Below are positions 12,177 to 13,750 of a stretch of DNA of 53,578 nucleotides, piece by piece. The notes below the pieces were generated by a model. That model was not told the DNA's origin. It ran no database searches and was given only the letters and a program-made list of their open reading frames with translations. Numbering within the stretch: position 1 is the stretch's first letter; every line of letters starts with the position of its first letter. The stretch comes from a virus (taxonomy: Duplodnaviria > Heunggongvirae > Uroviricota > Caudoviricetes), in the IMG/VR virus record IMGVR_UViG_2671181188_000017; one strand, 5' to 3'. Made by a program: the position numbers and the translations under genes.

Positions 12177-12565
12177 GAATCAAGGACTGCTTTTTTAAGC
12201 TCGTTTTTATTTTTCAATAAATTAGAAAATGTAGTAGATAAATCATAGGGTGCCACAAAAAAGTACTTCTGAGGGATGGGATAATCACCATTCAGAGTAA
12301 AATAGATAAGTTTTCCAAACTCAACTACAACATCAGAGAACCCTAAACTTTTTTTGTACAGTTTGCATTGATAATTATCCCAAGAATAACCTTCTACGTT
12401 AGGATCCGATTTATATCCAACAACGTCTCTACCTTTATCTCCAGCTCCTCCCAAACGTTCGCTCCACGGGTAATCATCTGATTTACAGACAATAAGCCAA
12501 TCATGGACAAATACCTCCCATTGTTCATCATCCCATGTCAATATTTCCGAAAGTGGTTGAGACAC
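12149..12565 (-). CDS. Hotspot ORF A: small protein with Mrr-cat/PD-(D/E)xK-like nuclease motif, translationally coupled to integrase
   Basis: GTG start at 12563-12565 preceded by AAGGAG (inside the last int codons) with 7-nt spacing, 3 nt after the int stop; motif GGAGDKGRDVVGY...YQCKLY resembles the Mrr catalytic core. Confidence 0.55.
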   Translation of the reverse strand: MSQPLSEILTWDDEQWEVFVHDWLIVCKSDDYPWSERLGGAGDKGRDVVGYKSDPNVEGYSWDNYQCKLYKKSLGFSDVVVEFGKLIYFTLNGDYPIPQKYFFVAPYDLSTTFSNLLKNKNELKKAVLDSWDSAISKK

Positions 12566-12568
12566 AAA

Positions 12569-13750
12569 TTAACTCCTTTTTAGTCTTTCAAATATCAAAT
12601 TACTGTACCAGTCCATCATAGACTTCCTTCCACTAAAATATTGAGCATGGTTATAAGTCCCCCTAATAGAATTTTTATCTACATGAGCCAACTGGATTTC
12701 AATCCAAGCACTCTCAAAACCTTGCTCATGCAGGATTGTAGAAAGGGTATGACGAAAACCATGTCCAGTGACTTTTCCTCCATACCCAATACGCTTAATG
12801 GCTTGATTTATACTCGCTTCGCTCATTGGCCTATTCGGATCGTTCCGCCCTGGAAAAACATAACGATAGTTCCCTGTCATGATCTTGAGTTCATTGAGTA
12901 AATCTACCGCTTGAGATGATAAGGGCACAAGATGTGGCCTACGCATTTTCATCCTTTCAGCAGGAATTTCCCAAATAGCGTTATCCAGATCAAATTCTTG
13001 CCATAATGCCGCGCGTAATTCGATGGTTCTCACACCCGTAATCATCAGTAATTTCGTGGCTATCTGGACAAGCTTACTCCCGGAGTAACCCTCTAAGGCA
13101 CGTAGAAAATCAGGTATCTCATCAGCTTTTAGGAATGGGAAATGATTGGATTGGTGTACTTCGAGAGCGCTGGAGAGATCAGCCGCAGGATTGTACTCCG
13201 CCCTACCCGTTGCAATTGCGTAGCGAAACACTTCGGAGCAACGCTGCCGCACTTTGCGCATTTTCTCCAACGCACCACGTTTCTCAATTTTACGCAGAAC
13301 GTTCAGCAGCTCTAGCGGTTTAATCTCTCCCACAGGCCTTGTTCCGACATAAGGAAAAATGTCGTTCTTAAACGCTTCCATGATGTCTGATGCATATCCC
13401 GCCGACCATTTAGCAGATTTAAGTTGATGCCACTCTCTGGCTATCTTTTCGAAGGCGTTCTCTGACTCTGTTTGCATAGCTAGCTTTTGCTCTTTTCGAA
13501 CCTCACTAGGGTTCTTTCCTTCTGCCACAAGTTTTCGAGCTTCATCACGACGGGAACGAGCATCGGCAAGGGTGATCGTTGGGTAAACACCAAGCGAGAT
13601 CATTTTGGGTTTGCCGGCATAGCGATAGCGGAACCGCCAACTCTTGCTTCCATTAGGTTCTATAAGTAATGACAACCCTAGCCCATCTCCAAATGTATAG
13701 GCTTTAGCTTCAGGCTTAGCGCGGCGAATCTGCATATCGTTTAAAGGCAT
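12569..13750 (-). CDS. P4-type tyrosine integrase (IntA-like)
   Basis: Track ORF 12569..13801; probable start MPLNDMQIRRAKPE..; C-terminal HGFRHT and late Y (RGTYNH) catalytic residues; adjacent to the tRNA 3'-end repeat. Confidence 0.9.
   Translation of the reverse strand: MPLNDMQIRRAKPEAKAYTFGDGLGLSLLIEPNGSKSWRFRYRYAGKPKMISLGVYPTITLADARSRRDEARKLVAEGKNPSEVRKEQKLAMQTESENAFEKIAREWHQLKSAKWSAGYASDIMEAFKNDIFPYVGTRPVGEIKPLELLNVLRKIEKRGALEKMRKVRQRCSEVFRYAIATGRAEYNPAADLSSALEVHQSNHFPFLKADEIPDFLRALEGYSGSKLVQIATKLLMITGVRTIELRAALWQEFDLDNAIWEIPAERMKMRRPHLVPLSSQAVDLLNELKIMTGNYRYVFPGRNDPNRPMSEASINQAIKRIGYGGKVTGHGFRHTLSTILHEQGFESAWIEIQLAHVDKNSIRGTYNHAQYFSGRKSMMDWYSNLIFERLKRS

What the first reader, a model, noticed from the sequence alone, without database searches (positions are those of the whole stretch)
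12563..12585. Hotspot ORF A is translationally coupled to the P4-type integrase
The AAGGAG Shine-Dalgarno for ORF A lies inside the last codons of int, followed by the int stop (TAA), 3 nt, then the GTG start of ORF A. The cargo operon is therefore likely transcribed and translated as an extension of the integrase transcript, which is unusual for accessory cargo and ties its expression to island regulation.
Basis: seen in the sequence. Interest (0 to 1): 0.4.

Follow-up and report, generated by a model that had tools for sequence, protein, structure and literature searches.

The report
Integrase–Lamassu operon junction, cargo decayed
The start signal of the first defence gene in this P4-like satellite prophage is written into the last codons of the integrase gene, a compact layout that is normal for this integrase clade, and here the defence genes behind it are already broken.

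Summary
The int gene ends with ...AAA AGG AGT TAA (stop 12571..12569). AAGGAG (12578..12573) lies in its last three codons. After TTT comes a GTG (12565..12563) that aligns with Met1 of nine full-length homologues.

The window is E. coli O157:H7 prophage Sp2, a P4-like satellite at thrW. "ORF A" is not a gene of its own. It is codons 1-138 of lmuA, the effector of a Lamassu/ABC-3C operon (lmuA-lmuC-lmuB). lmuA is split by a 1-nt loss in an A-run, and lmuB carries an in-frame stop and a frameshift.

The junction is not unusual. Among integrases 85-99% identical to this one (35 loci), 29 have a co-directional first cargo gene within 12 nt of the int stop. These span 11 unrelated gene families. 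Five loci are convergent, and none is co-directional with a long spacer. PGAP annotation of 9 E. coli loci agrees (7 fused, 2 convergent).

Homology between elements breaks in int's last ~10 codons. Co-directional cargo therefore brings a ribosome-binding site but has no room for a promoter. Co-transcription with int is well supported indirectly. Strict translational coupling is not shown: lmuA has a strong SD of its own and no structure masks it. The finding is ordinary and of modest interest.

The parts
12569..13750 (-). int, the P4-type tyrosine integrase of prophage Sp2 (393 aa; the ORF stays open upstream to an ATG at 13801)
   Evidence: Pfam Arm-DNA-bind_3, Phage_int_M and Phage_integrase. 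RefSeq annotates it as intS/ECs_0289. It is 38% identical to P4 Int.
12572..12604 (-). Variable C-terminal tail of Int (S-N-L-I-F-E-R-L-K-R-S), after the conserved ...M-x-x-W-Y and outside the catalytic domain
   Evidence: The DNA alignment loses conservation after the WY codons. tblastn matches stop at residue ~386-388 of 393. Amino-acid identity is 0.27 over residues 381-393 against ~0.9 elsewhere. The Pfam domain ends at residue 387.
12573..12578 (-). Shine-Dalgarno AAGGAG of lmuA, inside int codons K-R-S, 7 nt from the GTG
   Evidence: Sequence. AAAAGGAG is identical in the Xenorhabdus relic of the same junction. 21 of 24 distinct junctions in the clade carry an SD-like motif.
12569..12571 (-). 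int stop codon TAA
12563..12565 (-). GTG start codon of lmuA, 3 nt (TTT) after the int stop
   Evidence: It aligns with Met1 of nine full-length homologues.
12149..12565 (-). 'ORF A': the 5' fragment of lmuA (codons 1-138; conserved GDKGRD...QCK motifs, read from memory as a nuclease-fold signature and not confirmed by Pfam)
   Evidence: Matches PADLOC LmuA profile PDLC03852 positions 10-140. The repaired 335-aa protein matches 334-337-aa homologues over 100% of its length.
12152..12158 (-). A7 homopolymer where lmuA is frameshifted; one more A would restore the frame
   Evidence: The reading frame switches at ~12152-12155 in tblastn against intact LmuA. Sequence.
11559..12176 (-). 3' fragment of lmuA (CTD6 domain of ABC-3C systems)
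   Evidence: Pfam CTD6, E = 7.7e-30. PADLOC LmuA profile positions 141-333.
11101..11559 (-). lmuC (ABC-3C middle component 2), apparently intact
   Evidence: Pfam MC2. PADLOC LmuC. RefSeq calls it 'ABC-three component system middle component 2'.
9289..11108 (-). lmuB pseudogene (SMC-like ABC ATPase), with an in-frame stop between 10445 and 10476 and a frameshift near 9861-9891
   Evidence: Three ORFs match PADLOC LmuB PDLC03863 positions 3-199, 231-412 and 428-608. tblastn against intact LmuB. Sakai annotates it as pseudogene ECs_0293.
9229..9262 (-). Terminator-like hairpin (13 pairs) after lmuB, the likely 3' end of the transcription unit
9056..9110 (.). Diverged cos-like segment that bounds the hotspot on the psu/delta side
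   Evidence: Read by eye against the P4 cos region. The canonical 19-mer is absent.
13827..13886 (-). Three AGTCCRTA repeats upstream of int, candidate Int arm-type sites over the int promoter region
   Evidence: These are the only three copies in the window and all lie within 60 nt. The function is inferred.
13913..13958 (-). 46-nt copy of the 3' part of tRNA-Thr (thrW): the att site at the Sp1/Sp2 junction

Best explanation
The 23-nt segment is the junction between the integrase gene of a thrW-type P4-like satellite (prophage Sp2 of E. coli O157:H7) and the first gene of its defence-hotspot cargo, a Lamassu/ABC-3C operon lmuA-lmuC-lmuB.

Shown: lmuA's ribosome-binding site (AAGGAG, 7-nt spacing) is encoded by int's last three codons. 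The int gene stops at TAA and lmuA starts at GTG 3 nt later. The int tail that carries the SD is the variable, cargo-linked end of the gene. This fused layout is the rule for co-directional cargo in this integrase clade.

Inferred: co-directional cargo arrives with no more than about 20-45 nt of its own upstream DNA, so it has no promoter. It is transcribed as the distal part of an RNA that starts upstream of or within int and ends at the hairpin after lmuB (9262..9229). If that start is Pint, expression would be low and Int-autoregulated, as reported for P4.

Inferred: LmuA translation starts mainly at its own strong SD. Reinitiation by ribosomes terminating at the int UAA is an optional extra.

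Shown: in this genome the arrangement is a fossil. lmuA is frameshifted, so 'ORF A' is codons 1-138, and lmuB has a nonsense mutation and a frameshift.
For: Geometry.

Start codon and gene identity.

Locus identity (Sp2, P4-like).

Generality: in the tier with int 85-99% identical (n=35), 29 loci have a co-directional first gene no more than 12 nt from the int stop, spanning 11 unrelated first-gene clusters. One locus has a 22-nt gap, 5 are convergent, and none is co-directional with a spacer over 45 nt. Independent PGAP gene calls in 9 non-Sp2 E. coli loci give 7 co-directional at -8..+3 nt (reverse transcriptase, Gabija-like nuclease, hypothetical proteins) and 2 convergent.

Boundary: conservation stops after the WY codons. 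Similarity linked to the cargo is confined to the last ~10-18 codons of int.

Same Lamassu subtype elsewhere: it lies 18-42 nt after a P4-type int in Serratia, Yersinia, a metagenome contig and locus L133, but has a ~440-nt upstream spacer in an Aeromonas chromosome.

The junction moves as a unit: a Xenorhabdus prophage keeps a ~45-nt relic of the int tail in frame (EWYSDFMFIGYKRRK* against DWYSNLIFERLKRS*) with an identical AAAAGGAG directly before its lmuA (11 of 2000 shuffles reach the alignment score).

No sign of an embedded promoter near the junction: promoter-like hits in int's last 300 nt number 11 in 31 loci against 18.4 +/- 4.9 in shuffles, with none in Sp2. Synonymous diversity is highest, not lowest, at int's 3' end. 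The tool scan finds nothing on this strand between 12566 and 13260, and no terminator lies between the genes.

P4 Int represses its own promoter (PMC7286903, citing Piazzolla 2006).
Against: No transcript data were found for this locus, so co-transcription is an inference.

Two weak promoter-like sites recur at fixed positions inside int. One is TTGAGA-16-GAAAAT at 13287..13260, present in 19 of 31 loci including Sp2. The other is a TATAAT in the T-Y-N-H codons in 15 of 31 loci, though Sp2 has TATAAC there. Either could drive the cargo independently of Pint.

From my memory of Piazzolla 2006 (the paper is not held), full-length P4 int transcripts were not seen in lysogens. If that holds here, read-through from Pint would be a poor way to express a defence system.

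P4 itself has a 66-nt int-cII spacer containing a perfect TATAAT. More distant int clades often have long spacers.

The junction RNA shows no significant structure (z = -1.5) and the centroid leaves the SD unpaired. There is therefore no evidence that LmuA translation depends on int translation.

Because the cargo is a pseudogene operon, the junction is under no present selection in this strain.
Confidence: 0.65

Rival explanations
1. Internal promoter. The cargo is transcribed from a promoter embedded in the int coding sequence, so its expression is independent of Pint and of Int autoregulation. The tight junction then reflects only compaction, and LmuA is translated solely from its own SD.
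For: Weak promoter-like sites recur at fixed positions in int: 13287..13260 in 19 of 31 loci including Sp2, and a TATAAT in the T-Y-N-H codons in 15 of 31 loci. Int-autoregulated, low Pint activity seems ill-suited to defence that must work in lysogens. lmuA's SD is much stronger than anything upstream of int.
Against: The site nearest the junction is TATAAC in Sp2, and the Asn codon varies freely between T and C among relatives. There is no drop in synonymous diversity at either site. Promoter-like hits in the last 300 nt fall below the shuffle expectation. The recurrent sites coincide with conserved protein motifs, which by itself explains their recurrence. Two near-fused systems cloned with only ~95-125 nt of int (SIR2 and NOD-1) gave no defence; this is weak evidence because inactivity has many causes.
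Confidence: 0.25
2. Strict translational coupling. LmuA synthesis depends on ribosomes that have translated int and reinitiate at the GTG, so LmuA output tracks Int output.
For: The stop-start distance is 3 nt and the SD lies inside int. Relatives show overlaps of the ATGA, TAAATG and ATGxxTGA type, which are typical of coupled cistrons.
Against: The SD is strong and optimally spaced. The junction RNA has no significant secondary structure and the centroid leaves the SD free. The int gene has no recognisable SD, so strict coupling would cap LmuA at a very low level. Gaps of 18-42 nt occur in other int-lmuA junctions, so the fusion is not needed for this cargo.
Confidence: 0.2
3. Chance juxtaposition, or ORF A is not a real gene start.
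For: ORF A has no Pfam or NCBIfam hit of its own and begins with GTG.
Against: PADLOC LmuA matches at E = 9e-41. Nine homologues start at the aligned position. The layout recurs in 29 of 35 related loci.
Confidence: 0.01

Closest known systems
psu-int defence hotspot of P4-like satellites (Rousset et al. 2022, PMC9122126; NAR 2026, PMC13586616)
   Same: Same element type and same position, between cos/psu-delta and int. The cargo varies between related elements and consists of defence systems.
   Different: Those papers say the systems occur 'in either orientation' and clone them 'with native promoters'. In the text I could search, they do not mention that co-directional cargo in this int clade is fused to the int stop codon with its RBS in int's tail. 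They also report that defence pseudogenes are rare (<1% in P4), whereas this cargo is pseudogenised and fixed in a whole lineage.
Phage P4 int-cII-(beta-gop) region (NC_001609)
   Same: The int gene is followed by a co-directional non-essential cargo gene (cII), then a terminator.
   Different: P4 has a 66-nt spacer containing a perfect TATAAT, so cII probably has its own promoter. Sp2 has 3 nt. P4 Int is only 38% identical and uses a different att site (tRNA-Leu, per PMC7286903) rather than thrW.
Lamassu (LmuA/LmuB/LmuC), also called an ABC-three-component (ABC-3C) system, with a CTD6-type effector
   Same: Gene order is effector, then middle component MC2, then SMC-like ABC ATPase, with profile matches to all three. 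Intact homologous operons of 334-337, 151-159 and 604-609 aa exist.
   Different: Here lmuA is frameshifted and lmuB carries a nonsense mutation and a frameshift. No solved structure matches by sequence.
Classical translationally coupled operon junctions, such as overlapping ATGA stop/start pairs (established knowledge, from memory)
   Same: Very short or overlapping stop-start distance, with the downstream SD inside the upstream ORF.
   Different: Dependence of downstream translation on upstream translation is not shown here. The upstream gene is a mobile-element integrase, and the downstream gene is swappable cargo rather than a functional partner.
Integron platform: promoterless cassettes expressed from a promoter (Pc) in or next to intI (from memory)
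   Same: Swappable cargo without its own promoter depends on a promoter associated with the integrase gene of the platform.
   Different: In integrons the cassettes are divergent from intI and are captured at attI/attC. Here the cargo is co-directional and fused to the 3' end of int, no attC-like sites were seen, and the exchange mechanism is unknown.

Membership tests
P4-like satellite psu-int hotspot | The element carries P4 core genes (alpha primase, psu, delta/ogr, sid-like, ash, orf106/DUF5375) | tested here: met
   Pfam Psu (two proteins), Ogr_Delta, Phage_ASH and DUF5375. A 796-aa primase ORF is present. Sakai annotates the region as 'prophage Sp2, P4-like phage'.
P4-like satellite psu-int hotspot | P4-type integrase at one end, next to a tRNA-derived att site | tested here: met
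   Domain architecture. 38% identity to P4 Int. A 46-nt thrW 3' copy lies 163 nt upstream of int. Relatives sit next to an intact tRNA-Thr.
P4-like satellite psu-int hotspot | Cargo between cos/psu-delta and int differs between otherwise related elements | tested here: met
   11 or more unrelated first-gene clusters lie downstream of ints 85-99% identical. E. coli examples carry RT, Gabija-like nuclease/helicase, DUF8370 and hypothetical proteins.
Lamassu / ABC-3C | Three components are present: LmuA effector with an ABC-3C C-terminal domain, LmuC middle component, and LmuB SMC-like ABC ATPase | tested here: met
   Pfam CTD6, MC2 and AAA_23/SMC_N. PADLOC LmuA, LmuC and LmuB at E-values of 1e-21 to 1e-50.
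Lamassu / ABC-3C | Intact reading frames (a potentially functional system) | tested here: not met
   lmuA has a frameshift in the A7 run. lmuB has an in-frame stop and a frameshift. Sakai annotates lmuB as a pseudogene.
Lamassu / ABC-3C | Anti-phage activity | not testable with these tools
   Requires plaque assays with a repaired or orthologous operon.
Translationally coupled cistron pair | Same strand, with a stop-start distance of a few nt or an overlap | tested here: met
   TAA-TTT-GTG, a 3-nt gap.
Translationally coupled cistron pair | The downstream RBS lies within the upstream coding sequence | tested here: met
   AAGGAG at 12578..12573, in int codons K-R-S.
Translationally coupled cistron pair | Both cistrons lie on one mRNA | not testable with these tools
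   Only indirect evidence is available: no room for a promoter or terminator, and the comparative pattern. No transcriptome data were found.
Translationally coupled cistron pair | The downstream RBS is masked by RNA structure unless the upstream ORF is translated | tested here: inconclusive
   MFE is -28.2 kcal/mol and z = -1.52, with 13 of 200 shuffles folding as well. The MFE pairs part of the SD region, but the centroid leaves it open.
Translationally coupled cistron pair | Downstream translation depends on upstream translation | not testable with these tools
   Needs reporter fusions with mutations of the int start codon or a premature stop.

The most novel reading that the evidence does not exclude
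In the thrW-type clade of P4-like satellites, co-directional defence cargo is systematically promoterless and welded to the integrase stop codon. The cargo's ribosome-binding site doubles as the integrase's variable C-terminal tail. Defence genes would then be expressed as the distal part of the Int-autoregulated int transcript and be wired to the satellite's integration/excision circuit. The int tail, SD and first gene would move as one unit, even into unrelated prophages. A practical consequence follows: hotspot systems cloned with only ~100 nt of int as their 'native promoter' may be silent, giving false negatives in defence screens.
Probability: 0.4. Interest if true: 0.5.

Novelty: new member of a known kind. 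Interest (0 to 1): 0.3.

Why it matters
For this genome it matters little, because the cargo is a dead Lamassu operon in a long-annotated prophage.

The general pattern behind it is more useful. In this integrase clade the hotspot cargo is either fused to the int stop codon or convergent. This implies that many P4-borne defence systems have no promoter of their own and depend on transcription through int. That affects three things:
- How such systems should be cloned and tested. Constructs that start ~100 nt inside int may lack a promoter.
- How their expression might respond to Int, Vis or AlpA regulation during satellite induction.
- Where the recombination boundary of the hotspot is drawn, which is inside int's last codons and not in an intergenic region.

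The int-tail relic upstream of lmuA in a Xenorhabdus prophage also gives a direction of transfer, from a P4-like hotspot into a phage.

Tried and rejected
(1) Rousset's 'O157:H7 FRIK944' synthetic system. I suspected it was this locus, but it is a cytidine-deaminase cargo from another P4 element.

(2) The A8 allele in IMG/VR locus L104 as a possible intact or phase-variable lmuA. I rejected it because L104 differs from Sp2 by dozens of scattered homopolymer indels, so it is a noisy assembly.

(3) An intact E. coli copy of this lmuA allele. None was found: all 310 matching records are at least 99% identical and belong to the O157:H7/O55:H7 lineage, and every row sampled is annotated as the split ORF pair.

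(4) Transcript evidence through locus tags ECs0289-0292 and two guessed EDL933 tags. No relevant paper turned up.

(5) Primary P4 papers. Piazzolla 2006 and Ghisotti 1990 are not held, so points taken from them are marked as from memory or as cited second-hand.

(6) Solved-structure relatives of LmuA by sequence: none. A lenient Pfam scan found no N-terminal domain. The nuclease-fold assignment rests only on my reading of the conserved GDKGRD...QCK motifs (from memory) and on PF04471 hits recorded for three distant homologues, P0043, P0103 and P0120.

(7) The canonical P4 cos 19-mer is absent within 3 mismatches. Only a diverged cos-like segment can be seen by eye.

(8) Linkage between the cargo and int's 3' third, meaning a promoter that travels with the cargo inside int. 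This is not supported: pairs with the same cargo are no more similar than pairs with different cargo, except in the last ~10-18 codons.

(9) An RNA structure masking the SD: not significant.

(10) A long int remnant upstream of lmuA in the Xenorhabdus prophage: none was found beyond ~45 nt.
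Full report
**1. Observation.**
The finding lies on the minus strand. Read 5'->3' on that strand, the sequence is ...TTT GAA AGA CTA AAA AGG AGT TAA TTT GTG TCT CAA....
- The int ORF is 12569..13801(-). RefSeq starts it at 13750, giving 393 aa.
- The stop TAA is at 12571..12569, and AAGGAG at 12578..12573 lies within the last three sense codons (K-R-S).
- Three bases (TTT) follow, then GTG at 12565..12563. The spacing from SD to start is 7 nt.

**2. What the locus is.**
The 4.7-kb region is 100% identical to E. coli O157:H7 genomes. In strain Sakai it is annotated as 'prophage Sp2, P4-like phage', with intS/ECs_0289 followed by ECs_0290-0293.
- The integrase has the P4-type architecture Arm-DNA-bind_3, Phage_int_M and Phage_integrase and is 38% identical to P4 Int.
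- The element carries an alpha-primase ORF, two Psu-family proteins, Ogr/Delta, Ash and DUF5375.
- A 46-nt copy of the 3' part of tRNA-Thr lies upstream of int, at 13913..13958. The intact thrW is at 52135..52210, with the lambdoid prophage Sp1 in between.

The cargo is a Lamassu/ABC-3C operon.
- ORF A matches PADLOC LmuA profile positions 10-140. The next ORF (11559..12176) matches positions 141-333 and Pfam CTD6.
- The ORF at 11101..11559 is LmuC/MC2.
- Three consecutive ORFs match LmuB positions 3-199, 231-412 and 428-608.
- A repaired 335-aa LmuA, with one A added to the A7 run at 12152..12158, matches 334-337-aa homologues over 100% of its length, up to 67% identical.
- tblastn with intact homologues shows the lmuA frame switch at ~12152-12155. 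In lmuB it shows an in-frame stop between 10445 and 10476 and a frameshift near 9861-9891.

So 'ORF A' is the first 138 codons of a pseudogenised lmuA. The GTG is nevertheless the true ancestral start, because it aligns with Met1 of nine homologues. This allele occurs only in the O157:H7/O55:H7 lineage: 310 records, all at least 99% identical, and every row sampled is annotated as the split ORF pair.

**3. Is the junction special?**
I collected int relatives from GTDB genomes and IMG/VR. For each locus I located the int stop and the first ORF of at least 100 aa downstream, then clustered those first proteins.

| int identity to Sp2 | loci | co-directional, ≤12 nt from int stop | co-directional, 13-45 nt | co-directional, >45 nt | convergent |
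|---|---|---|---|---|---|
| 85-99% | 35 | 29 (11 unrelated first-gene clusters) | 1 (intact lmuA, 22 nt) | 0 | 5 |
| 55-70% | 72 | 14 | 8 | 34 | 16 |

- In the 85-99% tier, 21 of 24 distinct junctions carry an SD-like motif.
- Independent PGAP gene calls in nine non-Sp2 E. coli loci agree. Seven have co-directional cargo at -8 to +3 nt: a reverse transcriptase overlapping int by 8 nt, Gabija-like nucleases at +1 or +3, and a hypothetical protein at 0. Two are convergent.
- P4 itself differs. Its int-cII spacer is 66 nt and contains a perfect TATAAT.

The layout is therefore the norm for this clade, not an oddity of Sp2.

**4. Where the cargo begins.**
- A DNA alignment of Sp2 with seven close relatives keeps conservation through the ...M-x-x-W-Y codons and loses it in the last ~8-12 codons of int.
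- tblastn matches typically end at residue 386-388 of 393.
- Amino-acid identity falls to 0.27 over residues 381-393.
- Pairs of loci with the same cargo are more alike than pairs with different cargo only in the last ~10-18 codons.
- GC content falls from ~0.45-0.49 in int to ~0.25-0.37 in the cargo, and the decline begins in int's last ~200 nt.

The same Lamassu subtype lies 18, 21, 22 and 42 nt after a P4-type int in Serratia, Yersinia, locus L133 and a metagenome contig. In an Aeromonas chromosome it has a ~440-nt upstream spacer.

In a Xenorhabdus bovienii prophage the closest lmuA (67% identical) is preceded by an AT-rich 390-nt spacer. The last ~45 nt of that spacer are homologous to Sp2's int tail.
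- Translated in frame, the Xenorhabdus relic reads EWYSDFMFIGYKRRK*, against DWYSNLIFERLKRS* in Sp2.
- The AAAAGGAG is identical in both.
- The local alignment score is 16 against 8.7 +/- 1.7 in shuffles, and 11 of 2000 shuffles reach it.

The int tail, SD and lmuA unit is therefore old and moved as a block.

**5. How it most likely works.**
The cargo-specific DNA upstream of the start is at most ~20-45 nt. That is enough for an RBS, but not for a promoter plus leader. No terminator lies between the genes, while a 13-pair terminator-like hairpin follows lmuB at 9262..9229. The most economical reading is one transcription unit, int-lmuA-lmuC-lmuB.

I tested the main rival, a promoter embedded in int's 3' coding region, in four ways.
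- The tool scan finds no sigma-70-like site on this strand between 12566 and 13260.
- Across 31 distinct clade members, promoter-like hits in int's last 300 nt number 11 against 18.4 +/- 4.9 in shuffles, with none in Sp2.
- Synonymous codon diversity is highest at the 3' end (0.44-0.54) and lowest at the 5' end (0.15-0.20). No hidden nucleotide constraint shows near the junction.
- Two weak sites recur at fixed positions. TTGAGA-16-GAAAAT is at 13287..13260 in 19 of 31 loci. A TATAAT in the T-Y-N-H codons is present in 15 of 31 loci, but Sp2 has TATAAC and the third base varies freely among relatives.

These tests argue against an internal promoter, but they do not exclude one.

On translation:
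- lmuA has a strong, well-spaced SD, whereas int has no recognisable SD.
- The junction RNA folds no better than shuffles (z = -1.5), and its centroid leaves the SD open.

LmuA initiation is probably autonomous, with termination-reinitiation as a possible supplement. Strict coupling is not shown.

If transcription comes from Pint, expression would be low and autoregulated. P4 Int represses its own promoter (PMC7286903, citing Piazzolla 2006). Three AGTCCRTA repeats, the only copies in the window, cluster 77-136 nt upstream of the int ATG and are candidate arm sites. From memory, Piazzolla et al. saw no full-length int transcripts in lysogens. The paper is not held. If that result applies here, it counts against Pint read-through as the main source of expression.

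**6. Literature.**
Rousset et al. 2022 define the psu-int hotspot, state that systems occur 'in either orientation', and clone them 'with native promoters'. Their Table S2 shows that co-directional clones start ~95-125 nt inside int.
- Two near-fused systems gave no activity: SIR2 with a 28-nt gap and NOD-1 with a 31-nt gap.
- One system with a 55-nt spacer was active.
- PARIS-1, with a ~140-nt spacer, worked only from Ptet.

This is anecdotal, but it fits promoterless fused cargo. The 2026 NAR survey reports that defence pseudogenes are rare in P4 (<1%), and Sp2's Lamassu is an exception. I found no paper describing int-cargo fusion or coupling. The library is incomplete, so this is not proof of novelty.

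**7. Verdict.**
Co-transcription is likely. Strict translational coupling is unproven. 'Unusual' is wrong for this clade. The downstream 'ORF' is a pseudogene fragment.
- The feature is an ordinary compact operon junction in a known hotspot of a long-annotated prophage.
- The clade-wide 'fused or convergent' rule, and the placement of the cargo RBS in int's variable tail, are modestly new and practically relevant.

Noticed in passing
window 9289..12565 (-): The whole Lamassu operon is decayed. lmuA has a -1 frameshift in the A7 run (12152..12158), and lmuB has an in-frame stop (between 10445 and 10476) and a frameshift (~9861-9891). The allele is found only in the O157:H7/O55:H7 lineage (310 records, all at least 99% identical). 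A 2026 survey reports that defence pseudogenes make up <1% in P4 hotspots.
   Followed up: yes
L087 4640..4689 and L088 (Xenorhabdus bovienii prophage): Directly upstream of an intact lmuA-lmuC-lmuB in a non-P4 prophage lies a ~45-nt relic of a P4-type int 3' end. In frame it reads EWYSDFMFIGYKRRK*, with the same AAAAGGAG SD. This suggests the cassette left a P4-like hotspot together with the int tail.
   Followed up: partly
window 13827..13886 (-): Three AGTCCRTA repeats cluster 77-136 nt upstream of the int ATG, and they are the only copies in the 53.6-kb window. They are candidate Int arm-type binding sites overlapping the int promoter region.
   Followed up: partly
window 13913..13958 (-) and 52135..52210 (-): A 46-nt copy of the 3' part of tRNA-Thr (thrW) marks the Sp1/Sp2 junction, and the intact tRNA lies 38 kb away. 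This shows tandem integration of a lambdoid prophage and a P4-like satellite at one att site. No third copy of the 25-mer was found at Sp2's other end.
   Followed up: partly
loci L003-L177 (int relatives): In the clade with int 85-99% identical, the hotspot arrangement is bimodal. Cargo is either co-directional and fused to the int stop (no more than 12 nt away) or convergent, and co-directional cargo with a long spacer is absent. The same cargo family shows several different junctions, for example -11 and 0, +3 and +1, or -13 and +11. This implies repeated fusion or trimming.
   Followed up: yes
window 13660..13750 (-) (int codons 1-30): Synonymous codon diversity across 31 int relatives is lowest in the first ~30 codons (0.15-0.20 against 0.3-0.5 elsewhere). 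This hints at an embedded nucleotide-level signal, such as regulation or translation initiation, at int's 5' end.
   Followed up: no
window 1576..2532 (+): A 318-aa ORF lies between Sp2's left end and the alpha primase gene, with no Pfam or PADLOC match. It may be cargo of a second, minor hotspot.
   Followed up: partly
window 9056..9110: Only a diverged cos-like segment (GCATGAAAACC...GGCGTGGGGGGCTGCGCGCGC) is present. The canonical P4 cos 19-mer is absent within 3 mismatches, which raises the question of whether Sp2 can still be packaged.
   Followed up: partly
Rousset et al. 2022, Table S2 (PMC9122126, supplementary file 3): Co-directional P4 hotspot systems were cloned starting only ~95-125 nt inside int as the 'native promoter'. 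The near-fused ones (SIR2, NOD-1) were inactive. These could be false negatives if such cargo depends on transcription through int.
   Followed up: partly
L104 (IMGVR_UViG_2923272612_000005): This Sp2 copy differs from the window by dozens of homopolymer indels, including an apparent A8 in lmuA. It looks like an error-rich long-read assembly, not a real allele.
   Followed up: yes
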